Source of the DNA: Trypanosoma brucei
Taxonomy: Eukaryota
DNA: 64,000 nt
Reading direction: 5' to 3'
Assembly (NCBI GenBank): GCA_000002445.1
Contig: CH464491.1
Span: forward strand, 736,001-800,000
Shown here piece after piece: positions 1,444 through 52,706 of the stretch (position 1 is its first letter; each line of letters starts with the position of its first letter). The notes beneath the pieces are model-generated. The model was given only the letters and a program-made list of their open reading frames with translations, had not been told where the DNA came from and did no database searches. Both the position numbers and the translations under genes were made by a program.

Positions 1444-2417
1444 CTGCGATACGATTCAAAAAAAAAAAGGGAACGAGTTGCAACAGCAATGTTCCAGTAT
1501 TCAGGAGTGTACACAGATACCCCAAAGTTTCCTTCTTTCCCTTGAAGCTTCCTTATATTATTCGCCTACGAGTAGACAAAAGAAGAAATTACAAAAGCAG
1601 TGATGCGGTGTAAGGTAAGGAACGACACGAAGCAAAAAAAAAAAAACGTTCAAGGTTAACATAAACAGCCCCGTTGAAACACCAATATTTCCTTGCACAC
1701 GCGGTTCACCCCTCCGCACTCCACGATTTCGTTTTCACCTGAACATTTATACGCTGATACAAACACAAGAACGCGGTACTCTTTTAGCAACGAACAAATA
1801 AAAATTGAAAAGTAAAGTGCACAAAAGGCTCCACCCGAACCAGTAGCGTATGCCACTTCCTGAAGGTGCTACAGCTTTCCAATGATTCGCAAAGTAACAA
1901 TGAAGAAGAGGGAGCAAACAGAAGAAAAAGGTGCTCACAAGTTGTCTCCTCAAGACATTCGTTTACAAGTAACAATGTTTGGAGCGCTCTCCCACAAGCG
2001 CAAATAGGCGAAGCGGCAGCAAAAATGGAACTCCATGTTTCAAAATAATTAAGAAATACAAACATAAGAACCTTCACGAACAGTCGTCCACTGACACATA
2101 CATATACATTCACATCGACAAAAGTGAAACATACAGCCATTTATAGTAAATTTCAACACAAAAGAAAATGTTATAGCCCCTAAACCGAGTCAAGTATACC
2201 CTCCCCCGGCGTGACAATTTTTTTCTGGTTGGAGGGAGGGTTATGACCGTGAGTGAACTCAGCACCAGATTGGAGGCACCGTTGTTGCTTTGCGCAACCG
2301 AGCTTCTTAGAATAGTACGGAGGAAGGGAAATAACAAAAAAAAACACTCTTTCGAAACGTACACGCAAATAAAGGAAAAAAAACGAGCAAACGAATAATA
2401 TATACGTGTATAATTCT

Positions 2418-2438
2418 AATATATATATATATATATAT
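2418..2438. repeat. (TA)10 microsatellite, intergenic
   Basis: Direct reading: atatatatatatatatatatat. Confidence 0.9.
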
Positions 2439-2467
2439 TCATTTTTTATGCGCAACAAGCTGCAACT

Positions 2468-5400
2468 TCAGCTTAATCGTGGAACAGCCCGCTGAGCTCT
2501 ACGCTTAGTGGTTCGCTCACTAACGACTGTTCGTGTTCCCGGGGAAAGGTTACCACTACGCTGACTAAAGAGGACTTTTGGAGATGCTAGGGAGAATCGA
2601 CCACGTAGGGTCGTTGCTAGGGACCCCAACCCCAGAGCAGAGGGAGACTGCAGATCCTTATCTTCCATTACTGAGCGACTAGATCTGGACGCACTCCATG
2701 GGCCGCTCCTTCTTATAGAAGACCTTGGGGTTATTATGAGGTGAGACTGATTCTGCTTTTGCATCACGATGTTAGCCTTCCGTACCGTCCTTTCAAAAGC
2801 GGTACTCAGCATGTACTCGTCAGTGCTTCGAAGAATAGGGCCGGCAACTTCGAAATTGTCTTTGTCCTTGGGGGTTTCCTGTTCCTCCGCACAACCACGA
2901 CCACTAACAACAGAGCCGTCATACACCTCTTTATTATGATGCTTTTTGACTACATTGTCAGTGTAAGTTAAGTCGTTTCGTTCAACGGCTTGCCGCAAAC
3001 CTTTATTACACGCCCTTTCCCCAATTTCATACATCTCGCTCAACATGGGTCTCGCACACGTCGCTACGTGCATCAACATATTCCCGATTAGAAGGTTAAG
3101 GGACCACATGGAAGGATGCTCATTACTTGGCGGTAGTGGGAAGCCACTAGGGTTAACGGTGTTGTGCCGCATCAACTGCACGGCTGCTGGGGGTAAGAGT
3201 CCAGCAGCCGTTATCATTTTTTGCGCCTCCCTCGGAAGCACATCGCTTCCGCGTCCACTTCTGCTTGACGAAGGACATGACCTCACCTCATCTGGCGAGC
3301 TTTCCTCAACCATATACCGTGAAAAGAATACTATATCCGCCAGAGGAACCAATTTCACTTCTGGTATTGCGCACGCGTAGTCCTTCAGCATTCCCTGTTT
3401 CTCCAAGGCGGTCATAATATGCAGTGTCCGTCTCGCGTAACCGTAACGCAACATATCGAATGCAGGTACGGAAGAAGGTGAAGCACCTTCTTCCAATATC
3501 TGGGCTAGAGACCGTGCCGGTGCCGTGTTATTGGGGTGAACAACATAATGCAGATTAATATGAAGTTTCAGAGATTCTTGTGCACCGTGCAAGAGTTCCC
3601 TGGGCGACTTGTGGGGCAACGTCACCGCACCAAGTCTGACATAATGAAATCCTTTACTTGTGTCAGCAGTGAAATCGCTCGAGAGGAGATACCCACCGTG
3701 AGCATCGCCCGTCGGATCAATCTGGAACAACATCGCTTCATAAAACCATTTCCAAACGTTGCTGTCACAATCCGTCAACAAACTGGCCTCATCAGCCGCG
3801 TTGATTTCACTAACCGTGCCGATTGGTACTGGAATGTCCACGAACCGCATCGTGGAGGTAGTGGGATAGCCATCTCTGACACTACCATTTTCTGGAGACG
3901 TGGACTCCCGCTTTCCCAATCCCATTGCTTTTCCATCTTTCACGAGACTCAGAAAGCATTGAAGAACGGAGCTCAACTCCTTCACATGCATATGCACATC
4001 GGCGTCATCAGAACCATGTTCCAGGAGGAACAGAGGAAGAACTCTGGCAATATCGATATGGCTTTCAAGTATGACAGTACTTGGCCAGCGACCCCGTACA
4101 ATCTGTATGCACGTATATCGCAACGCTAGGTAAGACCATCGTCGATACGTGGTTGAGTCAATTGAGTAACCACCTTCCTGATCTGTACCGTCACAAACTA
4201 ACTTTATAAGTTTTATGAAGGAGCGGCAGACCTCCTCCACATGCCGGGGCAGCCGACCCGGTTGAAATTGACCAGAGTGAGAGAATTCCAGGCGGCAGCC
4301 AATGATGTCAGGATTCATCACTGGAGGAGAGCTACAACCAGACTGCCTTGAAATGGTTTCCCCATTACCTCTCTGGTTAACGTTCATCTGAAGTATTATA
4401 TCATGACTGCTGATACCACTGCGGTAATTTACCCAACCGTCGTAATCACGGAGGAGGTCTGTCGCCACTTTTACATGCCTACTCAACATCTCCATATCAT
4501 CGACCACACACTTGTATACAACCAACGCCGCTATGCGACTCCTTCTCCGCTTCTTCTCCAATTCAACCTTAAGACAACTTCCCTCCTGGCGACTATGTAT
4601 ACTTCCCAGAAGCCTTGTGATGAGGTTCTGCTCCTGCTTCAAAGTTTTCATCGCGGCTTCGGTGAGACACCACACGTCCCGTGTATCAGAACAGCTTGGT
4701 GCACAAGAAACCGCCTTTGAAGGTGAGACGTTGCGCGCCGAGTCGATATCCCCGGCTTGCTGCTCTGTGGATCCACAAGACTGTAAAGTGCTGCACATGT
4801 GCATGGCGTGATGTAACAACTGTAGTGCGTGTTCGGATTGATCGTAGAACTCCTGATACAAATACCTCTCCTCCAAAGTTAGAAATGAATTTGAGCACGC
4901 TGTGACAGCAGAAATTGTAAGCCGTTTCCGGTATGTTCGGGCCGCGGAAGCCATGCGGCGCCTCTCGAACTCGATCACATCATCACGATCTTGCTCCAAT
5001 GTGTAAACCGCCTCTGCAAAGGTCATGCGTGCCACAGCCTTCCGTATTTCTCTTTCGCCTGGCACACCAAACTCTGACAGTACATACTCTAATTGATCAC
5101 GCACTTCTCGCAGACAACTCAGAGAGTGTGAGGTTATCCAGCGAGTGTACCACCGCATCACCGATATGTCCCACGAAACATCAGCGAAACACGTATCACT
5201 CCCAGCAACCTCCATGAACAACCTCAATTTTTCATCCTTTCTCCAGCGATCCTCCGAAATGGCTAAAGAATCTGCCCCATCCTCTCTTGAAGTTAGGGAG
5301 GACTCTTCACAAAACGGAGCAATGAATCCTTGCTCATCTTCAATGTCCCGAAACTTACTTTCCAGGGCGTACACCTCGTCCTGTAGCACTGCCACTGCCT

Positions 5401-10318: not shown

Positions 10319-11704
10319 CTACGACGTGCGTTCGACTTGGGTGGCGGCACCGTTTTCGTTTTTGGAAGTTTCCTCTCCACCTGCGCCGTTTTCTCCGGTT
10401 GCAGCCGCTTCAGGCTCCTTCACATTTTCTTGACCTTCAGTGACTTGCGCTCCTTGTGGTTTTTCGACTGCGGCTTCGCCTCCCTGGGCTGCTTCTCCCT
10501 CCTTTGGGGCCTCTCCTCCCTGAGCTGCTTCTCCCTCCTTTGGGGCCTCTCCTCCCTGAGCTGCTTCTCCCTCCTTTGGGGCCTCTCCTCCCTGAGCTGC
10601 TTCTCCCTCTTTCGGAGCTTCTCCTTCTGCTGCTGCTTCTCCCTCTTTCGGAGCTTCTCCTTCTGCCGCTGCTTCTCCCTCGGCAGGCTCCTCTGCCTTC
10701 TTCGTGGGTCTCTTAACCCGCCTTATCCTTCGCACCTTTTTGACTTCCTTCTTCTCTTCAGGATTCTCGCTGTAGAACTCATCAATTTGGTCAAAAGCGA
10801 TTTCAGCAACCCTTCTCCTGTAGCTGTTGTCGTACCTGCTGGCGAGGCGGTCAACAGCATCGTCCGTTTCCTCATTGCCGAAGTGCTCCACGTTCAGCTG
10901 CCCCAGGAGTGTTTGTGCATTGGTTGTTAGTGCGGCATTGGTTACGTTCAACCGCTGGCAAATGCTGGCATCGCGTTTGTTTGCGAGCTCCATGCTTCGG
11001 ATGTTTATCTTTAGTTTGGTGATTTCTTTCTCCGTACGCTGCTTTTCCTCCCTCACCTGCATCTGAAGCTCCTTCCGTACTTTCCGCAACTCACGTACAC
11101 GTAGAACCAACTCTGTGTTATTGATTTTGGCTTCATCAGTGTACGCCAGGGTGTCTCTCAGCTCGTCTGGTACTTCCTGTGTCTGGGCGCGCGTGAAGCG
11201 GGTACCGGCCAGTGGCTCCCCGCGGATGATGCGGGGTCCATTACGGATCTCACGCGCACACCTTGCCGTACGCTGCCGGAGTGCCTCGATGCTGCGGTGC
11301 TCTCCCTCGAGTGTCTTCTGCAGCTCAACACCGTAGGCTGCAATTTCCTCTTTACTGTGAATTTTATCCGCAGCAGCCAGGTTCTCCATCTCGGCGGGCA
11401 GTTCATCAACCACGTACGCCGCGGCGCGCTGTGCAAATCCCTCCAACCGCTGTACACGGGCGGCAAGTGGGTACACGAGGTGAGCCCCGTGCTGTTCCTC
11501 AACCTCCTGCTTAACGTCGCTGCATGATTCCCGGAGTTCCGTGGTGGTTTGCATCAAACGGAGACGTTCCAGGTGCAGTTCATCCAGATGCGGTAGGTTC
11601 TCATCACCACCAGCTCGAAGCAGGGCATTGATGCGGCTCTGAAGCCTTGCGCGTCGGGCGTCAAGTTGGTTTTGGAGCTCTTCAATTGTAACAGCGGCTG
11701 CCAT
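10319..11704 (-). CDS. coiled-coil protein with C-terminal 12-aa acidic tandem repeats (EGEAAQGGEAPK-like)
   Basis: The first ATG is at 11704 (MAAAVTIEELQ). The track start at 11788 is GTG. The N-terminal ~350 aa is heptad-like and E/R/L-rich. The C-terminus contains ~6 copies of a 36-bp encoded repeat. Confidence 0.55.
   Translation of the reverse strand: MAAAVTIEELQNQLDARRARLQSRINALLRAGGDENLPHLDELHLERLRLMQTTTELRESCSDVKQEVEEQHGAHLVYPLAARVQRLEGFAQRAAAYVVDELPAEMENLAAADKIHSKEEIAAYGVELQKTLEGEHRSIEALRQRTARCAREIRNGPRIIRGEPLAGTRFTRAQTQEVPDELRDTLAYTDEAKINNTELVLRVRELRKVRKELQMQVREEKQRTEKEITKLKINIRSMELANKRDASICQRLNVTNAALTTNAQTLLGQLNVEHFGNEETDDAVDRLASRYDNSYRRRVAEIAFDQIDEFYSENPEEKKEVKKVRRIRRVKRPTKKAEEPAEGEAAAEGEAPKEGEAAAEGEAPKEGEAAQGGEAPKEGEAAQGGEAPKEGEAAQGGEAPKEGEAAQGGEAAVEKPQGAQVTEGQENVKEPEAAATGENGAGGEETSKNENGAATQVERTS
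10470..10697. repeat. 36-bp tandem repeat x ~6 (unit gctgcttctccctcctttggggcctctcctccctga, two sub-variants) inside the CDS
   Basis: Direct reading: three near-identical copies starting at about 10488, then three diverged copies of the form gctgcttctccctctttcggagcttctccttctgc. Confidence 0.85.
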
Positions 11705-12062
11705 AACGATCACTGTATGATTACAATCAATAGGACAACAAGCAATCAGGGTATCAACAATAATAAGAAGTGTATATTGCAAGCACACGCAACTGTTTGA
11801 TGCTATCGATGCGTGTCCGCTTTACTTATGATCCTTCACTTGATCTTCCTAGTTACTGGTACAAATAAGTTTATATTCGTGTATTCCTCAGTTCCTTAAC
11901 CTTCCCCTATTACGCCGTTTTGAGTTACTTGCTTGTAAGTAATGCGGTGAAACTTTAGTTTCGAATTATCTGGGGCACAACGCGTGCAAAAAGATATTGA
12001 GTGAAGATCGAAATACCAAAAAGAAAAGACGGTATATTTGGATGAGTTGAATGTACGTGCAT

Positions 12063-29390: not shown

Positions 29391-31491
29391 TTACCCAGCC
29401 AATGCATGCTGACTCAAAAAGTGAAATGCATGCCACATGCGGTCAAGGGTTGAGAGTCGCTGTTGCCTTGTGGACCATACGCTCTCGAGACGGTCAAGAT
29501 CCTCCAAGTATTGTTTTAGGTGATGGTACCGTGGGTAATATTCCATAGCAATACGTCGCATGTGATGCGTCAGTAGGAGGAGCATGCCTTGATCATAATC
29601 ACTCAAATATGTACTGTGGTAGTAACGAGAAGGATTGACTAAAGAAACTTCCTCCAAGTTGGTTGAGACCGGACTCTCATCTCTCCGAAATTCAGGGAGT
29701 TTCAGCTGCACATCTTTGACGTAGTGGTCGCGATAATTGTGGTGGGGGTGCTCGCAGTTGGCCCCTGAAATCTCGCCCATTTCAGGGAATGTAACGAGAT
29801 GGTGGACGGCCCACCAACAAAGTTTCAGGTGCAAAATCACTGGTCTGCGCTTCACCCGCCTGTTCTGAAGTGACAGTTGCAGTATGCCACCAAGGAATGT
29901 GATGACGGGAATCATTGCCATCACTCTGAAGTTAAGGTCATTTTCCTCGAGTATTTCGCCTGTTACGTTTATAACGCGGTTTACCTCAAGCTGCTTGCAG
30001 GCTAGTTGAACAAGTATAAGACGCGGAAGGTTTCCGAATAGAACACTGCGGATAGGTCGTTTGATGGCCGACTCAAAGTCCCGATTAATCGTTAGGTACC
30101 CCTCATCATCAGTCATGACACCCATGCGAAGGCTCTGTAGTGTATCGCGATGTAATTGTTCAAGGTGATTGGCGTCGCTCATGTCTGGTGAGCAATCTTT
30201 ACAGTAGTCGCTTATGATATTGGCTACCGACTTCATTTCTTCCTCAAGTGCGCGGCGCCTCTCCAACACGCCTGGGCGACTGCCTAACAAACTCCTACGA
30301 ACTTCCTGCAGCGGCCACACGACGTAATTTGACACCATCCATCGGAGTGTTGCTCGTGCCGATGAGCACACCTGTAGAAGTTTACGAGCGCCACCGGCAG
30401 CAAGCCACGCTACCGAGGGAATAACAACAAAAATGAAGAAAGCAACTGGGCGCCACCTTCGCCCTCGAGGCGGCATGTGTCCCTTATCAGCTCCCTCCTC
30501 CAGCTTCGAAACATTTAGTTGTAGTGAATACGCTGTCACATAAAACAAATTAAGTACTTCATGCAGTGAAGTCGCACCACCTTCCGGAAATGATTGTGGA
30601 TCCCTCGCAGATCCACCAGATACGTCTTCGGGTGGAACCAAAACGTGCAGCGAACCTTTTAGTTGCCACACTGCCCTTGTCACTGCGGTTCGTACCCGTG
30701 ACAGCACACGTTGCCGCGCCTCTTCGTGTTGTGCGTCAGTTAACACAGGAAACCACGAATCATCATTCCCCACAGCGGCAATGGATGAATTCGCACGATC
30801 GAGTATGTTATGTAGCGTTCCAATACCGCACACAACACTACGCATCATCCGATGCAAAAAAGCTCCATGTGTATTCGCCATCAAAGCTATCTGTAGCATA
30901 TATCTCCCCCAACCTGTGTACAATATACCATAACACTGTTGCCGCAACCACTGCCAACCACTAAGTGATAAGTGAAAAGAAGCCCGTGCCGAGTGTTTCT
31001 CTGCCCAGACCCAGTACTGTGCATATGCAGAAATGCACTCATGAAGAGCAACAAGTCTTTGCATGACAATAACTGTACAGTAGCGTACCCACACACTGAG
31101 TTGCAGCCAAGCGATAAGTTCCCTTTCCGCAATAGCTTGAGGGTCCTTAACATTCTCTTCACCAAAAACCTCCACGAGCGTTGGTGACGCTCCATTTAGA
31201 AACCGCAGCCGGTCCCCCACTGGTGATGTGTTGAGCTCACGCAAAAGTAACACCAAATCTTCCAGTGAACGTAACTGTTTGGCGGGCGCCTCCAATTCAC
31301 TGAGAATTCCCGGTCGTTCAGTTAGCAGTTTCGTTACGGTGGGATTTCGACTAATGTGAAGTAATGCCTCCCGAGAGCGACTTGCCAGTGCCGTGGCAAA
31401 TGAAGAGGGGAAGTTGCGCCGTTTCCTCGCCAGTAGATCAGTTACTGTAAAACTCCATCCCAGTTGGGAGCCATCTTCGCAGAACATATCG
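29391..31491 (-). CDS. hypothetical membrane-associated protein (700 aa)
   Basis: The track ORF runs up to 31907, but its first 139 codons are translated polypyrimidine and (GT)n low complexity. A polypyrimidine tract plus AG sits immediately upstream of the ATG at 31491 (MFCEDGSQLGW). There is an internal hydrophobic segment (PVAFFIFVVIPSVAWLAAGGA). Confidence 0.45.
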
Positions 31492-31656
31492 CACGAAACG
31501 GAGGATGAACTGAAAAATAGATAGAGAGAGAGAACGAAAGAGAGAGAGAAAGAAAAAGAGAAGTAAAGGTCACTAAAAAAAAAAAAAAATAGAGCAAGTT
31601 CATAAAACAAACTCAATTGGGTTACGTGCTCATACGCCTTTCCCCCTCCCCCCCCA

Positions 31657-31678
31657 AACACACACACACACACACACA
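31657..31678. repeat. (CA)11 microsatellite preceded by a C-rich run, in the leader region of gene 29391..31491
   Basis: Direct reading: ccccctcccccccaaacacacacacacacacacacat. Confidence 0.9.
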
Positions 31679-34600
31679 TACGCACGCTGAAAGAAAAGAA
31701 GGAAGGGAGGGAAGGACGTATGAAGGCACAAACAAGCAACCCGAGAAACAGTAACAAACAGAGATGGCGCGAGGTTACCGTTGCGTAAAAAAGAAAACGC
31801 TGAAAACTGTGTAAAAATAAAAAGAAAAAGAAAAGAAAAAAAGAAGGGGGAAAACTACACATACATTGGACAATCATGTGACATGTGGAACCATATGCCA
31901 CTTCCATGACTCGGTAGCAACCCCGAAAAACAAAACAATATGCGGTTTGTTAATTGCTTATCAGTATTTTCATTTGTAAAAAAGAAAAAAATTAAAAAAT
32001 TATGATACTAATAAATATATTAATTATGATAATAATTATGATCATTATAAATAAGTAAGAAAACAAAACTGTTGTGATTCTGCGGTAAAAAAAAAAGACT
32101 ATTATTTTACCCTTTCCCACTCAATCACTCCATCGGCTGGAAAAGATATATATATATATATATTTTCTTCTGTTTATATAATGGAAAAATAATAATGGTA
32201 CCAAACAAAACAATATCAAAAACAAAAACAAAATGGAACGGGGAGGAAAGATAAAGTATTTTCAGGAGGTAAACCTCATTTACCTTCTATATACGGTCTC
32301 TCACTCTGCATTTTGTTTTATTTTTCTTTAGGTGGGCGAACAGAACAAAAAAGAAACAAAACGACCAAATAGAAGTAAAAAAAAAATTATAGCCACGCCC
32401 ACACTTCCTCACAACTTTGAAGAAGAACGTAGCCGTTTTCTTCTTTTTATCTATTTATTCTGCTCTTCTTTTTTTTAAAAAAAAACTAAAGAAAACTTAA
32501 ATGTTTCTTTCTTCGCTCCTCTTTTTTTTTAAATTATTATTAAACATTATTTGAGCTATTTTCTCCTCTTTTTTTTATCCCCTCTTTTCACTTCCTCCGA
32601 ACAAAACAACAAAACAAAAAAAGACGAGGAGCAATACTAAAAACAAAGCAGTGTATAAAAAAAAACAAATAAAATAGAAGTAAAATCAGGAGGAAATACA
32701 AATAATAAATAATCTAAAGTATTTTAGCGTACCGAAAGAAATAGAGGAAGAAAAAGAAACGAAAGGCGAGGGAATGAAGGAGGATTATGGAGGGGGAAAT
32801 AAATTAAAGAAAAAGCAGAAATAAGAACAAAATTCATTTCAAAAAAAAAAAAAAATGCGAGCGACAGCGAGTGATAGAAACGAATATACGAAAAAAAAAC
32901 AAGCAAATAAAATAAACAAGTAGTGGCAATAGCAGTAATAAGAAAGACAACTCGCAAAACTTCAAATGGCAAGAAGAACATATATATATATATAATATAC
33001 ATGTACACTTCCACTAGTCATCATCATTATCATCATTTCCTTTACTTACAGCTGCACATTTTTCCTAATTTCATTCAAATTATTTATTTACACCGTCACT
33101 ACTGCCTTACACTATTTTCTTTAATTATTATTTTATGCTCGTTTTTTTTTTCCTTCTCACTTCCCTTCCCCATATGACGGAGATACGCCACGCTTACAAA
33201 CGCATAATACATAAATCATCAAACATATGTACATATGCATAAATGTATACACATGACGTTCGAAATATATGTGTGTCTTATCTTTCGTACCTTTTTTTCC
33301 TTTTTCTTCTCCCCGTACGTTTAAATCTTCATCTTATTTTGATCCATTTGAACACTTTTTTTCAATTGTTTTGACAGTTACCGTATGTATATATATAATA
33401 ATCATTATTGTTTTTATCCTTCGCATCTCCGCTGCCTTTTCTGTTTCCTCCTTCCTTTGTTTTTTTTTCTGTGTTTTGCTTTCTTCCTCCTTTTTTTTTT
33501 GCCTTTTCCTTTCTTTTTTTTTTTCATCGTTTCACTTTACACATACCGCATACGAAACAACTCACCGTCAAATCTTTGATCTCGTTTACACAAAGTTCAT
33601 TTATTGGTTTCGACATATTTCGCTGTGCCATCAAAGCTCCCTCCTTCCACTATCTTTTAATTTTGTCCCCTTTTTTCTTTTTTTGGTTTCTTAAAGTTGT
33701 TGTTTTTGTTGTTTGTAACATCCACTTCCATTTGGTTGACCTTTCACCCAACTTCCTTCTCCCATCACGAAAATTTGATCTTCTCATATTTTTTTTAAAA
33801 ATACCCCACCTCACCAACCTGCCACTTTTTCCCAGATTTAATTTATTTATTTAATCATGTTATATATTTTTTTCTTTGATGTGTGTGTTATTTCCGTTAT
33901 ATAAAGCCTAGCAGTTATGCTTCCTTTAGTAAAAGCATAACACACGCACACACAATATATATATTTATATATAACATTATATTATATTAGCGGAGCACAT
34001 GAGCTGAATGCATGTGGGAAGTCACCGATAGGAAGATGCTTATACCAAGAAATAAATAAAAAACGAACAAATAAATAAAAAAAACAAAAAGAAAAGAAAA
34101 GAAAAGAAAACCCAAACGGCATGGGGAAAAGTGGTAATCAAGTTGCAGGTGGTGCGGCATGAAGAGAAAAATAAGTGCGAATGAAAAAGAAACACAACCA
34201 AAACCGCATTAAAGGAAAAGGTAAATATAACACAAAAACGAAAGAGGACCAAAAAAGAAGGAAAAGTTTCCTTTTTTTTTCTTTTTGTACGAAGAGACCA
34301 GAAGGAGAAAGGGAGTGCACACACACACACACTATATATATATATATATGTGATCGCGGGATTCCGTAGCGAAACCAAACGCGTGAAGAATTGATGGAAA
34401 AGGGGGAAAATACAAAACTAGGATGAAAGAGAGTAAAAACGTCAAGCAACGAAAATAACCGAGGCCTTCTCACAAAAAAGAAGAAACCTGAAAAAGAAAA
34501 AAAAGAAACAATGGAGGAAAAGGAGTTTAATGAAGGAAATAAAAAGGAGGAAGAAGCGCGAATCATACGACCCCACAAATAAAAAAAACAGAAAAAAAAC

Positions 34601-34710: not shown

Positions 34711-36276
<1,566 letters not shown>

Positions 36277-47814: not shown

Positions 47815-50331
47815 TCACTTTTTCCCACCTACGGAAGGTATGACAAAGTAGTAACTGTTTGGGTGGCGTGCAACAGCCACTTCCCTCGCCGGTAAGGGCC
47901 CTGCAAACGCGCCAGAAGCACGAGGGTCAGCAGCATTACCACCCATGCCATCGATGTTTAGTTGTATCAGCGAACTGGGATCACCGTGACAACGCAACAC
48001 CGCGTTTTTTATATCTCTGTTTATCACACTACTATTTTTCACTCGGGTAAATACCGCATGGACACTGTTGTGCGCATTCACTAGGGTAGCTTCCGTGCAG
48101 AGAACGGGTATATGACCAACAAAACGGTCAGCAAGAATCTCCGCAACACCGCTGAAGTACGTCATACCATTCCCCGTTGACTTGCCAAAGTATGCTACTG
48201 CTGATGGGGTAATATCACTCTCATCTGTTGATCCCGAGGTAGTACGAACTCTAATCATAGTATCATTGGCAAATATATGATATTTCGTACTGCAGAAACG
48301 TAGAAGCACGGCAGAGTTTGCTACATCACCCGACGAATGCGTGTGCCATACATCGCCAAGGACGGTTGTTGGTGGCGTCCTCACAAAATTACCATCGTTT
48401 GTGACAGCGTACACCGCGTTGTGATCCTCTTCTGCGAAAGTATCAGAACATAGGAGGATCCTGAGTTGTTTCCATGGCCACTCAGAATGCGATGGTCCCC
48501 AATCAGAACGTGCTGCAGTAACACAGGGCGCAAACTCAGCAATAAATGGTTGTACATCACTGTCAGCGTCAACAACATGGATAATAGGGTTCACTTTCCG
48601 TTGAAGTGCCGAGGTGTTATCCGTCAAAAACTTGAACAACGTCATTACTGTCGAAGCGGTGGTGGTTTGGGGAAGTTTCACTCCCCTTTCCTTCAAATGC
48701 GGTAGCACACGCTGCTCGTAGTCCTCTCGCGCCCTCTGCCACAGTTCACACATCTCACGATGGCCGCTCTTCCAGCCATTCATTTGATGTTTCCTACAGC
48801 AGTACATTTCCACGCGGCATCTACCACAACGTAACAGTTTGTCACGGCGCCGTTGGCACCATGAACAAACCTCATTGTGTGTTGGTGGGGGCACAGGAGA
48901 CACATCTCGTGGTAGTGTGTAGTTGCCATCCTTGCATGATATGATGTTCCTCGAGAGGAACTGAAAGGCCGCTGCGGCAGCAGCCCAATCGTGCTCGTTA
49001 CGTGGTGAATATTCCAAAACCTCCACATGTGGGGAGGCAATTGGCGTGTCTTTCACTACAGACCCTGTTGGCGTCCGATAAACAACTTTTGGGAAAGAGT
49101 AGCTACTGCAGGATCCTTTGCATAGCGGCTCACATGGAAACGTCTCAACTGCTTGCTCCTGCATCGACAAAAAAAATAAGAAACGGTCAATATCGTCGAA
49201 GGCAATACCTTCAAGTGGCGTTAGTTGGGCGAAAACTTCACCATCTTCATGCATCATGTCGTCGTAAACGGTATCAAAAGATTTTTCATCACACAGCCGG
49301 TCTTGAAGGTAAAGCACTTCACCTCCATCTTGCATTAGGTGAAGCTCCGCTCCTATTGGTTGCGGGGCAAGTGGGCCGGGGTCTAAATTTTCCTCAGATA
49401 CCTCTTGTTTCTCCACAAAAGGCTTCTGAATGAGAAGGACGTGCCAACGGCCATCTCCTGTCACCGCAGAGGAAGTGTCAGATGATGAAATGGTTGGGAG
49501 GGTAAAGGAGGTTACGTGACCCACTCGCTTCTTCAAATTTTCTATCGCCATGCGACGTTCTACCTCTAGAGCAGGGAATGATCCGTCCGCACCGGTCCCG
49601 TCACTCGTCATTGCACCTGCTGCTGACACGATGGAGTCACTATTATCAGGTTCACGAAACGATGCTGTATACAGTAAAGGGTGTACTTGCTGAAATGACC
49701 TTAGTACCGCGTCGTTTCCCACCTGTGATGGTGCCGATACGTCTACCGCAGCAGGTTCATGTTGCACAGCCCATGCAACGACCTCACCTGCCATCCCAGG
49801 TAATCTCCTACCTGAAATGACCTCTGTTATGTGATGTCGCAAAACTGTAAAGGACTGCAGGGCAAGCGGTGCTAACACATGTTCGAGGCGTGTCTTGAAT
49901 AGAGAAAACGCACGGTCGGAAAAGAGTCCCAGTTTCTCATGAGTATCACCAACAGTCACACACCTCAAGTCAAACGACGCGGGATGAAGCGATGCAGGAA
50001 CGAAACGAAAGATATCCGCAACCAGTTCCGCACCCTTCGTTTCCCACAGTACCTCCTGGCAACTGTTTTTCATGTTGTAGAGTAACAAACGCCACTGAGA
50101 GCTCTCGGTAGAGTCAATGAAAATATCCAACTCTTCTTCATTATCTGAGGTTCCGAACAGCAGTTGGAAAACTGGTGCATACAACACATTTCGCCTCTTG
50201 TCCCTGCACCACTGCCGAGGCAATACACTCAGAAGAAACCACCGTCGGTAGCGCTCATTCAACACCTTTCCAAGTGCCTCGGCTTCAGTGCACGCTCTTC
50301 CGTCCCGCAGGAACTTCTCCACAACAGCCAT
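47815..50331 (-). CDS. hypothetical protein with a MYND-type zinc finger (838 aa)
   Basis: CSWCQRRRDKLLRCGRCRVEMYCCRKHQMNGWKSGHREMC fits the zf-MYND consensus (C-x2-C-x7-C-x2-C ... C-x3-C-x7-H-x3-C). ATG verified at 50329-50331. Confidence 0.55.
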   Translation of the reverse strand: MAVVEKFLRDGRACTEAEALGKVLNERYRRWFLLSVLPRQWCRDKRRNVLYAPVFQLLFGTSDNEEELDIFIDSTESSQWRLLLYNMKNSCQEVLWETKGAELVADIFRFVPASLHPASFDLRCVTVGDTHEKLGLFSDRAFSLFKTRLEHVLAPLALQSFTVLRHHITEVISGRRLPGMAGEVVAWAVQHEPAAVDVSAPSQVGNDAVLRSFQQVHPLLYTASFREPDNSDSIVSAAGAMTSDGTGADGSFPALEVERRMAIENLKKRVGHVTSFTLPTISSSDTSSAVTGDGRWHVLLIQKPFVEKQEVSEENLDPGPLAPQPIGAELHLMQDGGEVLYLQDRLCDEKSFDTVYDDMMHEDGEVFAQLTPLEGIAFDDIDRFLFFLSMQEQAVETFPCEPLCKGSCSSYSFPKVVYRTPTGSVVKDTPIASPHVEVLEYSPRNEHDWAAAAAAFQFLSRNIISCKDGNYTLPRDVSPVPPPTHNEVCSWCQRRRDKLLRCGRCRVEMYCCRKHQMNGWKSGHREMCELWQRAREDYEQRVLPHLKERGVKLPQTTTASTVMTLFKFLTDNTSALQRKVNPIIHVVDADSDVQPFIAEFAPCVTAARSDWGPSHSEWPWKQLRILLCSDTFAEEDHNAVYAVTNDGNFVRTPPTTVLGDVWHTHSSGDVANSAVLLRFCSTKYHIFANDTMIRVRTTSGSTDESDITPSAVAYFGKSTGNGMTYFSGVAEILADRFVGHIPVLCTEATLVNAHNSVHAVFTRVKNSSVINRDIKNAVLRCHGDPSSLIQLNIDGMGGNAADPRASGAFAGPLPAREVAVARHPNSYYFVIPSVGGKK

Positions 50332-50966
50332 TCGATATCAGATCCAAGTTTCCTCGTTCCTTCAGAATGCAAAAAGAAATAAAAAGAACGTTAAGGTATT
50401 TTCTATCAGCTTCTCGCATGTGGTGTCACACCTATGCGAAGCGCTGCCAGTAAACAACAAAAAAGTAAAAAAAGCGAAGTGGTGGAAACGAAATTGAGAA
50501 CACTATATCAATTTGCGCTGTGCACCGCCGCTCCACCTGCCGAGCCCAAAACAAAACGACATTCGTGGATAATCATGTAATTATGATGGGGGTCACAAGA
50601 AAAAATTTAGAGGTCGAATCATTAAAAAAGAACTAAAAAAAGGTAAAGTTTTGTATGTAAATAAAAAAGGAACAGTGGTATCATTAGAGCTAAAAAGACA
50701 GGGATGATATTGCCAAAACAATTTACCTCCAAGATGTTACCATTGGGAGACTAATAATGATGTGTACAAACAATACACTCCTCTTTATGCTGCTTCACAG
50801 CACAAGAGCTTTTCTACGAAACTAAGTACAGTACAGCAAAATTAAAATTATACTTGGAAAAAAAGAACACCATACAGGTACTAACTATTCAAAAGGGAAA
50901 ACCGATAACAGAACACAAATGTAGTTACCACCATAAAGAGAAAAAGGAATTGAGTAAAACACGAAG

Positions 50967-52388
50967 TCACATTACAGTACATCGAGGGCACATACCATAC
51001 AGTCTGAACCTCCTGTTCGTTGCTTTACCTGGTTCCAAAAGTGGTGCTTCTGTGTCTCCAGGATCCGCTGAAGGAGATGATTCGTGCATCCTCCGTCGCT
51101 CAGTTTTCAAGGAGTTCAGAGCCTCATCTCTTTCTTTGAGTGCCCAAATATTCTGTCGACGAATTTCTTCCAATGACTCTACAGTCTCCTTCAAAGACGT
51201 TGAGAGTGTCACATTCTCATCTTCTGCAGCTTTCAGTGCGGCAAGTAATTTCTCCTTCTCACACTCGGATGCCGTAATAATTTTCTTATCATCTTCTGCC
51301 ACCTTCCTCAGTTCTTCCCTCTCATCTTCTGCAGCTTTCAATGCGGCAACCAATTTCTCCTTCTCACACTCGGATGCCGTAATAATTTTCTTATCATCTT
51401 CTGCCACCTTCCTCAGTTCTTCCCTCTCATCTTCTGCAGCTTTCAGTGCAGCAACCAATTTCTCCTTCTCACACTCGGACGCCGTAATAATTTTCTTATC
51501 ATCTTCTGCCACCTTCCTCAGTTCTTCTCTCTCATCTTCTGCAGCTTTCAGTGCAGCAACCAATTTCTCCTTCTCACACTCAGATGCCGTAATAATTTTC
51601 TTATCATCTTCTGCCACCTTCCTCAGTTCTTCCCTCTCATCTTCTGCAGCTTTCAGTGCGGCAACCAATTTCTCCTTCTCACACTCGGATGCCGTAATAA
51701 TTTTCTTATCATCTTCTGCCACCTTCCTCAGTTCTTCTCTCTCATCTTCTGCAGCTTTCAGTGCAGCAACCAATTTCTCCTTCTCACACTCAGATGCCGT
51801 AATAATTTTCTTATCATCTTCTGCCACCTTCCTCAGTTCTTCTCTCTCATCTTCTGCAGCTTTCAATGCGGCAAGTAGACTTTCTTTTTCGTCTGTGAAT
51901 TCGTTAACCAGTCGAGCAAGTTGTTCTTCGGCCACTTTTCCTGTGACCGGGTTATAATCAGCACTACGGGGATCATTATCGCCAGCACTAGCGATATTTT
52001 TTTTGTAAACCGAATGATCCCCGGTTTCTTGCGTCAGGTTGCCTTCTCCTTCCTTACCAGTTCCCTTCTGCAGCGCATTCAGGGTCTCCAGTGTGCTGGC
52101 AAGCTCATCCCTTGTTTTTTGCAAATCACACTGCAGTTGTCCTTGGTCAAAGTTTGATTTGCGTAAAAGCTCGTCATAAGCACCCTCCAGCTCTTTGATA
52201 CGTTCGTCACGCATCTCCAACTCAAGGCGAAGTTCGGCGACCAAGCGACTGCCCCCGCGGGCACTGGTTACAGTACTACAATCCGTGGAGTCGTTTGTAG
52301 TATGTGAACCGTCCCGGCTGCTATAGAAAGAAGTAACCTCTGTAGCGGGGCGTGAGGCACTGGGTGACCTTTCATCAAAGGGAAACAT
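50967..52388 (-). CDS. coiled-coil protein with 35-aa tandem repeats (LVAALKAAEDEREELRKVAEDDKKIITASECEKEK x ~6.3)
   Basis: ATG verified. N-terminal coiled coil (LRLELEMRDERIKELEGAYDELLRK), then six near-identical 35-aa repeats and a coiled-coil C-terminus. Orientation matches all neighbours. The antisense frame is also open, but only because of the repeat. Confidence 0.6.
   Translation of the reverse strand: MFPFDERSPSASRPATEVTSFYSSRDGSHTTNDSTDCSTVTSARGGSRLVAELRLELEMRDERIKELEGAYDELLRKSNFDQGQLQCDLQKTRDELASTLETLNALQKGTGKEGEGNLTQETGDHSVYKKNIASAGDNDPRSADYNPVTGKVAEEQLARLVNEFTDEKESLLAALKAAEDEREELRKVAEDDKKIITASECEKEKLVAALKAAEDEREELRKVAEDDKKIITASECEKEKLVAALKAAEDEREELRKVAEDDKKIITASECEKEKLVAALKAAEDEREELRKVAEDDKKIITASECEKEKLVAALKAAEDEREELRKVAEDDKKIITASECEKEKLVAALKAAEDEREELRKVAEDDKKIITASECEKEKLLAALKAAEDENVTLSTSLKETVESLEEIRRQNIWALKERDEALNSLKTERRRMHESSPSADPGDTEAPLLEPGKATNRRFRLYGMCPRCTVM
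51218..51880. repeat. 105-bp tandem repeat x ~6.3, >97% identical copies
   Basis: The period was measured directly: atcttctgcc recurs at 51291 and 51396. Copies differ only at a few third-position sites (gcggcaacc/gcagcaacc, ccctctc/ctctctc, cggat/cagat). Confidence 0.9.
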
Positions 52389-52706
52389 ATTGGCTTGTAC
52401 AACTTAACGGTAATATCAACTATAAACATATAGCGATGATGTCCGCCCACGCGGACAGAGACAGGCGGTTAAATACCGGAGTGAAGAAGTAGACGATGCA
52501 ATCTTCCAGGCGTAATTGCTGCTGCACTGACTAAAAATAGAAACAGGGTCAACGCTATTTTTTTTTTTTGGGGGGGGGAGGACGGAAAATTGTGAGTGAA
52601 AATGCAGACTTGATCCAGAAATAAAACAACTTGTAAAGGGTCAGCGGAACTCCAAACCCACCTAAACATGCGCACGCACATATAGAAGGAAGGGACAAGA
52701 CGCACC

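What the first reader, a model, noticed from the sequence alone, without database searches (positions are those of the whole stretch)
51218..51880. Near-perfect 105-bp x 6.3 tandem array encoding a 35-aa coiled-coil repeat (candidate repetitive antigen or cytoskeletal protein)
Copies are >97% identical and differ only at synonymous third positions, implying recent expansion or concerted evolution. The repeat (LVAALKAAEDEREELRKVAEDDKKIITASECEKEK) is E/K-rich with a heptad-compatible pattern and contains one Cys per unit. Trypanosomatid tandem-repeat proteins are frequently cytoskeleton or flagellum associated and immunodominant. Copy number is likely collapsed or variable between assemblies. 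Both strands are open across the array; the plus-strand 367-aa Ser-rich ORF is an artefact.
Basis: seen in the sequence. Interest (0 to 1): 0.6.

Follow-up and report, generated by a model that had tools for sequence, protein, structure and literature searches.

The report
Repeat rod of trypanosome protein POMP12
The tandem array is real and is the in-frame 35-amino-acid repeat of an already annotated Trypanosoma brucei gene (Tb927.11.2750, POMP12), which sits at the same genomic position as the gene for the classic Chagas-disease antigen CRA/R27-2 and probably encodes a lipid-anchored helical rod whose length varies between strains.

Summary
There are 6.3 copies of a 105-bp unit at 51215-51874, with no indels. 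They lie in frame in a 473-aa minus-strand ORF (50967-52388).

The window is T. brucei TREU927 chromosome 11. [quoted passage not shown]

What I add:
- **Variation fits coding on the minus strand.** Among copies, 6 variable codons are synonymous and 1 is not. The open plus-strand frame fares worse (4 synonymous, 3 not).
- **Copy number varies.** TREU927 and T. b. equiperdum have 6 full copies. T. b. gambiense DAL972 has 17.3. A T. equiperdum OVI contig breaks inside the array.
- **The protein has no transmembrane segment.** It ends in a CaaX box (CPRCTVM).
- **The family is wider than reported.** Homologues in T. vivax, Leishmania, Neobodo and unnamed samples share an N-terminal motif. All ten with an intact C-terminus end in CaaX.
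- **The T. rangeli gene at the same position is "R27-2".** It carries CRA repeats.
- **Repeat content differs by lineage:** 35 aa in T. brucei, CRA-type in T. rangeli, 39 aa in Leishmania, none in T. vivax.

Best reading: a farnesyl-anchored coiled-coil spacer with a recombination-prone rod. The lipid anchor and the antigenicity are inferred, not shown. Interest is modest.

The parts
50967..52388 (-). Coding sequence of Tb927.11.2750 (POMP12), 473 aa plus stop, about 53 kDa, calculated pI 4.8
   Evidence: ORF list. The product is an exact match to XP_828358.1/EAN79246.1/Q386N5 of T. b. brucei TREU927. The TriTrypDB header in a paper supplement gives Tb927_11_v5.1:807320-808741(-), 473 aa. The neighbour Tb927.11.2740 is at 804168-806684(-), 838 aa, which gives the same offset (756353) for both window ORFs. 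Mass and pI.
51249..51878 (-). Six full 105-bp units encoding 35-aa repeats (aa 171-380)
   Evidence: Units 2-6 are identical at the protein level; unit 1 has L for V at position 2.
51216..51248 (-). Partial seventh unit (aa 381-391, LLAALKAAEDE), after which the sequence diverges
52059..52259 (-). Conserved N-terminal helix (aa 44-110) carrying the family motif L.LE.E.RDERI.ELE..YEEL.RK..F..GQL
   Evidence: AlphaFold2 helix 44-110, pLDDT 85-91. Alignments A1 and A2 show the invariant columns. hhalign of A2 against Leishmania P0034 gives 96.5% probability, and against P0016 98.2%.
52260..52388 (-). Ser/Thr-rich, predicted disordered N-terminus (aa 1-43) with conserved M-F-x-F start and S8-P9
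   Evidence: pLDDT below 50. S8 and P9 are nearly invariant in A1. POMP12 phosphopeptides are reported to respond to CK1.2 knockdown (PMC12222847).
50970..50981 (-). CaaX box C470-T-V-M473, a predicted farnesylation signal
   Evidence: Read directly from the translation. All ten homologues with an intact C-terminus end in CaaX. T. brucei farnesyltransferase prefers Met or Gln at position X (PMC3206815).
50988..50990 (-). Cys467 of the CPxC motif, a candidate second lipidation (palmitoylation) site
   Evidence: C-P-x-C-a-a-M is shared by T. brucei (CPRCTVM), T. vivax (CPSCAVM) and L. lindenbergi (CPVCNVM). The palmitoylation role is inferred by analogy with H/N-Ras.
52521..52590 (-). Polypyrimidine tracts followed by AG dinucleotides, a candidate spliced-leader acceptor region about 135-145 nt upstream of the ATG
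   Evidence: Sequence read. The function is inferred from the general architecture of trypanosome trans-splicing sites and was not mapped.
50854..51957 (+). Antisense 367-aa Ser-rich ORF. It is an artefact of the repeat and not a gene.
   Evidence: It starts at TTG, and in the window only three ORFs of 200 aa or more are on the plus strand, each overlapping a longer minus-strand ORF. Its frame has 4 synonymous and 3 non-synonymous variable codons, against 6 and 1 for the gene frame.

Best explanation
**What it is.** The array is the central, in-frame repeat of the protein-coding gene Tb927.11.2750 (POMP12) on the minus strand of T. brucei TREU927 chromosome 11. Each 105-bp unit encodes 35 residues, exactly five heptads, so adding or losing a unit lengthens or shortens an alpha-helical rod by about 5.2 nm without shifting the heptad register.

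**Architecture.**
- aa 1-43: a disordered, Ser-rich N-terminus.
- aa 44-110: a conserved helix.
- aa 111-146: a linker.
- aa 147-437: a helical rod of about 290 residues that contains the repeats.
- aa 438-473: a disordered tail ending in CPRCTVM.

**Most likely mechanism (inferred).** Cys470 is farnesylated and Cys467 is perhaps palmitoylated. With no transmembrane segment, this would be what holds the protein on the cytosolic face of the mitochondrial outer membrane, where proteomics placed it. The rod would project the conserved N-terminal head away from the membrane, making the protein a lipid-anchored spacer or tether.

**Why the array looks as it does.** Unequal recombination and gene conversion keep it homogeneous and change its copy number. 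The repeat sequence itself is probably not essential. Orthologues at the same locus carry unrelated repeats (CRA-type in T. rangeli, 39 aa in Leishmania) or none (T. vivax).

**Shown:** gene identity, reading frame, copy-number variation, family conservation of the N-terminal motif and the CaaX box, and conserved gene order.

**Inferred:** farnesylation, membrane topology, tether function and antigenicity.
For: **Identity**
- The product is an exact match to XP_828358.1.
- Coordinates and lengths match Tb927.11.2750 and its neighbour Tb927.11.2740.

**Coding frame**
- Variable codons are 6 synonymous to 1 non-synonymous, and there are no stops.
- Every ORF of 200 aa or more that does not overlap a longer one is on the minus strand.
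- The protein has been quantified in proteomic studies (PMC11867338; PMC8255026; PMC12222847).

**Helical rod**
- AlphaFold2 predicts helices at 44-110, 147-294 and 307-437.
- The strongest hydropathy period is 3.5 residues, and 35 aa is 5 heptads.

**No transmembrane segment**
- The highest 19-residue Kyte-Doolittle mean is 0.5.

**CaaX box**
- The protein ends in CTVM.
- Ten of ten homologues with an intact C-terminus end in CaaX: T. b. equiperdum CTVM, T. vivax CAVM, L. lindenbergi CNVM, and unnamed CLVM, CVIM, CSIM (twice), CVIM, CSVM and CLIA.
- T. brucei farnesyltransferase prefers X = Met or Gln, and the organism lacks PGGT-I (PMC3206815).

**Concerted evolution and instability**
- Differences between strains fall at the same unit positions that vary among copies.
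- DAL972 has 17.3 copies against 6.3 in the window.
- A T. equiperdum OVI contig starts inside the array.

**Orthology**
- T. rangeli has the orthologues of the 661-aa, 273-aa and RING genes in the same order, followed by R27-2. Its N-terminus is 47.5% identical to POMP12, and it passes Pfam CRA_rpt.
- T. vivax has the same gene order and no repeat.
- Leishmania has the MYND orthologue directly downstream, a RING fragment upstream, and a 117-bp x 2.4 repeat.
Against: - **Farnesylation has not been shown.** Threonine at a1 is not aliphatic, although the same CTVM ending occurs on a T. brucei VAMP in a published CaaX list.
- **The coiled-coil core is weak.** In the best registers only 4 strongly hydrophobic residues plus 2 Ala occupy the 10 a/d positions per unit, with E, D and S in the rest. 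The rod could be a single stable helix or a loose dimer.
- **The structure prediction is limited.** It used a single sequence and has low overall confidence (pLDDT 66.6, pTM 0.24).
- **The outer-membrane assignment rests on one fractionation proteome** that I could not read. The T. cruzi relative is described as cytoplasmic (PMC3890492).
- **The T. cruzi sequence was never in hand.** I could not check whether T. cruzi R27-2 itself ends in CaaX.
- **The DAL972 copy has a 1-nt deletion** that removes the CaaX tail from its annotated product. If real, the anchor is dispensable in that strain.
Confidence: 0.6

Rival explanations
1. Cytoskeleton- or flagellum-associated repetitive antigen. The repeats would bind microtubules or the flagellar attachment zone, as in MARP or FAZ1-type proteins.
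For: The unit is E/K-rich and helical. There is a sub-threshold Pfam match to GAS, 'growth-arrest specific micro-tubule binding', at 32.0 bits against a cut-off of 32.3. The relative in the T. cruzi clade is a strong B-cell antigen.
Against: The GAS match is below its gathering score and is of the kind long coiled coils produce. The gene is annotated from an outer-mitochondrial-membrane proteome. The conserved parts of the family are the N-terminal helix and the CaaX box, not the repeats, which are absent in T. vivax. Nothing seen here supports a cytoskeletal location.
Confidence: 0.1
2. A prenylated coiled-coil protein of another cytosol-facing membrane (ER, nuclear envelope or Golgi), or a soluble cytoplasmic one, that merely co-purified with outer-membrane fractions. 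The POMP name would then be misleading.
For: CaaX processing takes place at the ER (general knowledge). T. cruzi CRA is described as cytoplasmic (PMC3890492). The protein rose in abundance when nuclear-lamina NUP-1 domains were over-expressed (PMC8255026). It has no transmembrane segment or mitochondrial signal.
Against: The only localisation evidence available places it in the outer-membrane proteome. I could not read the primary paper.
Confidence: 0.2
3. The repeat region is a single alpha-helix (ER/K-type) spacer rather than a dimeric coiled coil.
For: Each unit has 11 acidic and 8 basic residues, with 9 i->i+3 and 5 i->i+4 opposite-charge pairs. The a/d positions are poorly hydrophobic.
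Against: The strongest hydropathy period is 3.5 residues, and L/V/I recur in heptad phase. The unit also contains an A/L-rich stretch (LVAALKAA) that is not typical of ER/K helices.
Confidence: 0.2
4. A non-coding satellite, or a gene on the plus strand.
For: Both strands are open across the array.
Against: The minus frame runs in frame from a conserved N-terminus to a conserved C-terminus. Variation is synonymous in that frame. The plus ORF starts at TTG in an otherwise all-minus gene cluster. The protein has been detected by mass spectrometry.
Confidence: 0.01

Closest known systems
[quoted passage not shown]
   Same: It is this gene. The protein sequence is identical (XP_828358.1), and the length and coordinates match after a constant offset.
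   Different: Nothing differs. In the literature I could search, I found no description of the repeat, the CaaX box or the link to CRA. POMP proteins are described there as largely uncharacterised (PMC13035230).
T. cruzi R27-2 / CRA (cytoplasmic repetitive antigen) = Ag30 = TCR27 = JL8, TcCLB.506811.160
   Same: The T. rangeli gene named R27-2 occupies the same position, after the orthologues of the 661-aa, 273-aa and RING genes. Its first 101 residues are 47.5% identical to POMP12. Both are acidic, helical tandem-repeat proteins. PMC8255026 also lists T. cruzi among the few species with an orthologue.
   Different: The repeats are unrelated in length and sequence: a 14-aa KQRAAEATKVAEAE-type unit (Pfam CRA_rpt) against the 35-aa unit. 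POMP12 does not match CRA_rpt. CRA is reported at 225 kDa, POMP12 is about 53 kDa. I did not have the T. cruzi sequence, so its C-terminus is unchecked.
Farnesylated coiled-coil proteins: B-type lamins, CENP-E/F, and T. brucei KinesinCaaX (Tb927.10.12440)
   Same: All combine a long helical region with a C-terminal CaaX ending in Met. KinesinCaaX shows that such a motif is farnesylated in T. brucei (PMC3206815).
   Different: There is no sequence homology, no motor domain and no intermediate-filament domain. Prenylation of POMP12 is untested.
Trypanosomatid tandem-repeat proteins used as serodiagnostic antigens (for example T. cruzi FRA, MAP and B13)
   Same: Near-identical in-frame tandem units, charged composition, copy-number variation, and assemblies that break at the array.
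   Different: I found no serological data for this T. brucei protein. Its predicted location is intracellular and membrane-associated.

Membership tests
Tb927.11.2750 / POMP12 (gene identity) | Identical protein sequence and matching genomic coordinates | tested here: met
   Exact look-up returns XP_828358.1/Q386N5. The offset 756353 fits both Tb927.11.2740 (838 aa) and Tb927.11.2750 (473 aa).
Mitochondrial outer-membrane proteins | A transmembrane, tail-anchor, signal-anchor or beta-barrel element | tested here: not met
   The highest 19-residue hydropathy mean is 0.5, so there is no transmembrane segment. The protein is predicted all-helical or disordered.
Mitochondrial outer-membrane proteins | Experimental enrichment in outer-membrane fractions | not testable with these tools
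   This rests on the annotation name. The primary paper could not be read.
CaaX-prenylated proteins | A C-terminal Cys-a-a-X with X suited to the organism's farnesyltransferase | tested here: met
   The protein ends in CTVM. T. brucei farnesyltransferase prefers Met or Gln at X (PMC3206815).
CaaX-prenylated proteins | Conservation of the motif in orthologues | tested here: met
   Ten of ten homologues with an intact C-terminus end in CaaX. The four homologues without CaaX are three truncated or partial sequences and one short T. conorhini model near a contig end.
CaaX-prenylated proteins | Covalent farnesyl on the Cys | not testable with these tools
   This needs metabolic labelling or mass spectrometry.
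CRA / R27-2 repetitive antigen family (Pfam PF07046 CRA_rpt) | Repeats that match the CRA_rpt model | tested here: not met
   There is no CRA_rpt hit for POMP12 at E <= 0.1. T. rangeli R27-2 scores 24.8 bits against a cut-off of 21.4.
CRA / R27-2 repetitive antigen family (Pfam PF07046 CRA_rpt) | Positional orthology and shared non-repeat domain | tested here: met
   The flanking genes are collinear and the N-terminus is 47.5% identical in T. rangeli. phmmer gives E = 4.2e-08.
CRA / R27-2 repetitive antigen family (Pfam PF07046 CRA_rpt) | Recognition by sera of infected hosts | not testable with these tools
   This is known for T. cruzi. I found no data for T. brucei.
Coiled-coil proteins | Heptad periodicity and a predicted long helix | tested here: met
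   The hydropathy period peaks at 3.5 residues and the unit is 5 heptads. Helices are predicted at 147-294 and 307-437.
Coiled-coil proteins | A hydrophobic a/d core and an oligomeric state | tested here: inconclusive
   Only 4 strong hydrophobics plus 2 Ala occupy the 10 core positions. No multimer prediction or coiled-coil predictor was available.
GAS (Pfam PF13851, growth-arrest-specific microtubule binding) | A score at or above the Pfam gathering threshold | tested here: not met
   The score is 32.0 bits against a cut-off of 32.3. It comes from five short stretches over the repeats, which is typical of coiled-coil cross-matches.

The most novel reading that the evidence does not exclude
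POMP12 would belong to a kinetoplastid-wide family of farnesyl-anchored coiled-coil proteins, present in Trypanosoma, Leishmania and free-living Neobodo. In Trypanosoma and Leishmania the gene sits at a conserved locus next to a MYND-finger gene. Only the N-terminal head and the C-terminal CPxCaaM or polybasic-CaaX tail are conserved. The rod between them would have expanded independently into unrelated tandem repeats in at least three lineages: 35 aa in T. brucei, the 14-aa CRA repeat in the T. cruzi clade, and 39 aa in Leishmania (Viannia). That would make the classic Chagas diagnostic antigen CRA the orthologue of a prenylated, mitochondrion-associated tether. It would also make the T. brucei array (6 against 17 units) a possible subspecies-typing marker and candidate antigen.
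Probability: 0.45. Interest if true: 0.5.

Novelty: new member of a known kind. Interest (0 to 1): 0.3.

Why it matters
The gene itself is known, so the array is not a discovery. Three things would still matter if confirmed.
- **A membrane anchor.** A conserved CaaX box would explain how a protein with no transmembrane segment reaches the outer-membrane proteome. It would also add a substrate to the short list of T. brucei farnesyltransferase targets, and that enzyme has been pursued as a drug target.
- **A cell-biological identity for CRA/R27-2.** The positional link would give the widely used Chagas antigen a cellular context. It would also be a clean case of one locus generating unrelated immunogenic repeats in different lineages.
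- **A typing marker.** The 6-to-17 copy difference between T. b. brucei and T. b. gambiense assemblies could be scored by PCR. It is also a warning that short-read assemblies break or mis-call this gene.

Tried and rejected
- **Word-indexed protein search.** With the whole protein it returned only the T. b. equiperdum orthologue. With the N-terminal 175 aa it returned nothing, not even the protein's own cluster. With the N-domain alignment it returned four hits. This index is insensitive here, and the full HMMER scan was what revealed the family.
- **Primary POMP paper (Niemann et al. 2013).** It could not be read by DOI or by a guessed PMC id.
- **Literature searches.** Searches for Q386N5 or XP_828358 and for R27-2 together with farnesyl found no papers. 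The search for CaaX, farnesyl and outer membrane together found nothing relevant. The published T. brucei CaaX list holds only named proteins and omits this gene.
- **PDB profile search with the N-terminal domain.** Only chance coiled-coil matches came back, at E 0.55 and 0.83.
- **Long hits to the repeat region.** P0009-P0011, P0013, P0017 and similar are unrelated repetitive proteins from metagenomes. They lack both the N-terminal motif and the CaaX box, so I rejected them as family members.
- **C-terminus in the T. cruzi clade.** The T. rangeli and T. conorhini contigs both end just after the N-terminal part. I could not check the C-terminus in that clade.
- **Fold search.** I did not run one, because pTM is 0.24 and the model is only long helices.
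Full report

Yes. Tandem Repeats Finder reports one array at 51215..51874: period 105, 6.3 copies, 96% matches, no indels, score 1229.

On the minus strand the array lies inside an ORF, 50967..52388, of 473 aa. Six full units occupy 51878->51249 (aa 171-380). A partial seventh unit (aa 381-391) then diverges.

Eight nucleotide columns vary among the six copies:
- five are third-position changes;
- two are synonymous first-position Leu changes;
- one is non-synonymous (V->L in copy 1).

Pairwise differences are 1-7 nt in 105. The claims '>97% identical' and 'only synonymous third positions' are therefore slightly overstated, but right in substance.

**2. Which strand codes?**

I counted variable codons in all six frames.

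| Frame | Synonymous | Non-synonymous | Stops |
|---|---|---|---|
| Gene frame (minus) | 6 | 1 | 0 |
| Open plus-strand frame | 4 | 3 | 0 |
| Other four frames | 0-2 | 5-7 | present |

Other evidence agrees:
- In the window only three ORFs of 200 aa or more are on the plus strand, and each overlaps a longer minus-strand ORF. This fits one polycistronic unit.
- The plus-strand ORF (50854..51957) starts at TTG.
- Upstream of the ATG there are polypyrimidine tracts followed by AG dinucleotides at about 52522-52532. This looks like a trans-splicing acceptor, but that is inference.

**3. What gene is it?**

The protein is an exact match to XP_828358.1 / EAN79246.1 / Q386N5 of T. brucei brucei TREU927, on a 5.26-Mb contig.

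A proteomics supplement reproduces TriTrypDB headers (PMC11867338):
- Tb927.11.2740, MYND zinc finger, Tb927_11_v5.1:804168-806684(-), 838 aa;

The window ORFs 47815..50331 (838 aa, MYND domain) and 50967..52388 (473 aa) fit both entries with the single offset 756353. The window is therefore Tb927_11_v5.1:756354-820353, and the gene is POMP12.

The T. b. equiperdum orthologue (99% identical) is named 'Proteasome maturation protein 12' in NCBI. This is almost certainly a wrong expansion of the abbreviation POMP (inference; the meaning of POMP is given in PMC13035230).

The protein has been quantified in several proteomic studies.

**4. Anatomy of the protein**

AlphaFold2, run on the single sequence (mean pLDDT 66.6, pTM 0.24), predicts:

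| Residues | Prediction |
|---|---|
| 1-43 | disordered |
| 44-110 | helix, pLDDT 85-91 |
| 111-146 | disordered |
| 147-294 and 307-437 | helix (the break is of low confidence) |
| 438-473 | disordered tail |

Properties of the repeat unit:
- It has 11 acidic and 8 basic residues.
- Its strongest hydropathy period is 3.5 residues, and 35 aa is 5 heptads.
- The best a/d registers hold only 4 strongly hydrophobic residues plus 2 Ala in 10 positions. A coiled coil is plausible but would be weak, and a single stable helix is not excluded.
- Each unit would add about 5.2 nm of helix.

There is no transmembrane segment; the highest 19-residue Kyte-Doolittle mean is 0.5.

The protein ends in ...YGMCPRCTVM. 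This is a CaaX box with Met at X and a second Cys three residues upstream.

Pfam gives only sub-threshold matches of the coiled-coil type. GAS scores 32.0 bits against a cut-off of 32.3.

**5. Relatives**

A full HMMER scan of 1.84 billion representative proteins gave 25 hits. They fall into two classes.

*Hits to the repeat region only.* These are long, unrelated repetitive proteins from metagenomes. I discarded them.

*Hits to residues about 5-134.* These are short proteins of 128-300 aa:
- T. vivax (273 aa);
- T. conorhini (137 aa, with the contig ending about 260 bp downstream);
- T. rangeli 'R27-2 protein, partial' (280 aa, at a contig end);
- Leishmania panamensis (partial), with L. lindenbergi (345 aa) in the same cluster;
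- Neobodo designis (a truncated transcript);
- several unnamed sequences from sequencing runs and metagenomes.

They share an M-F-x-x-F start, an S-P pair, a Ser-rich stretch and the motif L.LE.E.RDERI.ELE..YEEL.RK..F..GQL (alignments A1 and A2).

A profile built from Trypanosoma sequences alone finds two more distant members:
- the Leishmania protein at 96.5% probability, E = 1e-9;
- an unnamed homologue at 98.2%.

Every homologue with an intact C-terminus ends in a CaaX box.

| Source | C-terminus |
|---|---|
| T. b. equiperdum | CPRCTVM |
| T. vivax | CPSCAVM |
| L. lindenbergi | CPVCNVM |
| P0012 | SRSCLVM |
| P0016 | KKKKDCVIM |
| P0018 | NKKDCSIM |
| P0019 | RKKDCSIM |
| P0025 | ESKRCVIM |
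| P0033 | GKRECSVM |
| P0023 | NKRCLIA |

In each case the CaaX box is preceded by either a second Cys or a basic cluster. These are the two classic 'second signals' of Ras proteins (established knowledge).

T. brucei farnesyltransferase readily modifies CaaX with Met or Gln at X, and the organism lacks geranylgeranyltransferase-I (PMC3206815). That paper's CaaX list includes only named proteins, and this gene is not in it.

**6. Synteny and the link to CRA**

Gene order around the homologue is conserved.
- **T. rangeli.** The orthologues of the T. brucei 661-aa, 273-aa and RING-like genes lie in the same order immediately upstream of 'R27-2'. Its first 101 residues are 47.5% identical to POMP12 (tblastn). 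The contig ends in the gene.
- **T. vivax.** The order is 655 aa, 270 aa, the 273-aa homologue, MYND finger, epimerase, as in the window.
- **L. lindenbergi.** The MYND orthologue is directly downstream and a RING fragment is upstream.

The T. rangeli protein passes Pfam CRA_rpt at 24.8 bits against a cut-off of 21.4.

According to PMC11444392 and PMC3890492, Ag30, TCR27, CRA and JL8 are the same T. cruzi antigen. It is annotated 'R27-2 protein, putative' (TcCLB.506811.160), has a 14-aa repeat, is described as a 225-kDa cytoplasmic protein, and is used in commercial Chagas tests.

POMP12 is therefore the positional orthologue of the T. rangeli R27-2 gene and, by that annotation, of CRA. The repeats themselves are not detectably related, since POMP12 does not match CRA_rpt.

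Tandem repeat content differs by lineage:

| Species | Repeat |
|---|---|
| T. b. brucei TREU927 | 105 bp x 6.3 |
| T. b. gambiense DAL972 | 105 bp x 17.3 |
| L. lindenbergi | 117 bp x 2.4 |
| T. vivax | none |
| T. rangeli | CRA-type |

[quoted passage not shown] That is too narrow.

**7. Dynamics of the array**

T. b. equiperdum (CM010682.1) also has six units. Fourteen of its 21 nucleotide differences from TREU927 lie in the repeat region. Most are at the same unit positions that vary among copies (positions 3, 5, 12, 28, 29). An E->V change is shared by its two adjacent last units. This is the signature of conversion and unequal exchange.

T. b. gambiense DAL972 has 11 more units. A single-base deletion in about unit 16 truncates its annotated product to 734 aa and removes the CaaX tail. 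In the corrected frame the rest of the protein, including CPRCTVM, is intact. I cannot tell whether this is a sequencing error or a real truncation.

A T. equiperdum OVI contig begins inside the array.

**8. How it most likely works**

Shown:
- It is a translated minus-strand gene.
- It has a helical rod built from in-register five-heptad units.
- Its N-terminal head and C-terminal CaaX box are conserved.
- It has no transmembrane segment.
- Its rod is variable and lineage-specific.

Inferred:
- Cys470 is farnesylated, with Cys467 as a possible palmitoylation site.
- This anchors the protein to the cytosolic face of the mitochondrial outer membrane.
- The rod acts as a spacer that presents the conserved, phosphorylatable N-terminal head.
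- Repeat number sets the reach: about 31 nm from 6 units, about 88 nm from 17.
- The repeat sequence itself is under weak constraint.

I put about 0.6 on this overall picture. Gene identity and reading frame are near certain. Prenylation I put at about 0.6-0.7, and the tether function lower.

The main rivals are:
- a prenylated protein of another cytosol-facing membrane, or a cytoplasmic one, that co-fractionated with outer membranes;
- a single-helix spacer rather than a coiled coil;

**9. Novelty and verdict**

The array belongs to an annotated, named gene, and tandem-repeat coiled-coil proteins are common in trypanosomatids. As a finding it is ordinary.

Three points appear not to be described in the literature I could search: the conserved CaaX tail, the wider kinetoplastid family, and the positional equivalence to the CRA/R27-2 antigen with independently arisen repeats. 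That search was limited and excluded the primary POMP paper and TriTrypDB pages.

Interest is 0.3. The novelty class is a new member of a known kind.

Noticed in passing
L004 (T. b. gambiense DAL972, FN554974.1) about 3465-3475; array at 1806..3619: A single-base deletion (GAGTG-GAGAAGG instead of GAGTGTGAGAAGG) in about unit 16 of a 17.3-copy array truncates the annotated product to 734 aa. The truncated product lacks the C-terminal region and the CaaX box, but in the corrected frame the remainder is intact. It may be a sequencing error or a real truncation.
   Followed up: partly
window 50967..52388 and L001 6001..7422: NCBI names the T. b. equiperdum orthologue RHW68084.1 'Proteasome maturation protein 12'. 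[quoted passage not shown]
   Followed up: partly
P0032 (T. vivax Y486 CCC52798.1, 471 aa) compared with P0008 (273 aa): The Y486 gene model carries a 198-aa Cys/Pro-rich N-terminal extension that is absent from the other T. vivax model and from all homologues. It is probably a mis-called start codon.
   Followed up: no
window 10472..10681, inside ORF 10319..11788 (-): This is a second coding tandem repeat in the window: 36 bp x 5.8, 93% matches. It encodes 12-aa EGEAAQGGEAPK-type units near the C-terminus of a 489-aa coiled-coil-like ORF.
   Followed up: no
window about 31900..34600: A 2.7-kb AT-rich stretch (GC 0.23-0.36, against about 0.47 elsewhere) holds no ORF of 200 aa or more. It lies between the ORFs 29391..31907 and 34711..36192 and is rich in A and T runs. 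It is probably long untranslated regions.
   Followed up: partly
window 29391..31907 (-) and 47815..50331 (-): These two ORFs have exactly the same length (838 aa), which suggested a duplication. BLASTP shows no similarity (best E 0.57), so it is a coincidence.
   Followed up: yes
L006 6772..7131 (T. conorhini): A 119-aa zf-CDGSH gene is called between the RING-like gene and the POMP12/R27-2 homologue. T. brucei has only 318 nt at the corresponding place (52389..52706), so that gene is absent or located elsewhere.
   Followed up: no
Literature: PMC8255026 and PMC11867338: [quoted passage not shown] PMC11867338 calls POMP12 a 'transport protein important for protein import'. I saw no evidence for that, though I could not read the source it cites.
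   Followed up: partly
L008 2017..6294 (L. lindenbergi): A 1425-aa gene (Peptidase_C97 / PUB / Glyco_hydro_85 domains) lies between the RING-like gene and the POMP12 homologue in Leishmania. It is absent from that position in the trypanosome loci.
   Followed up: no
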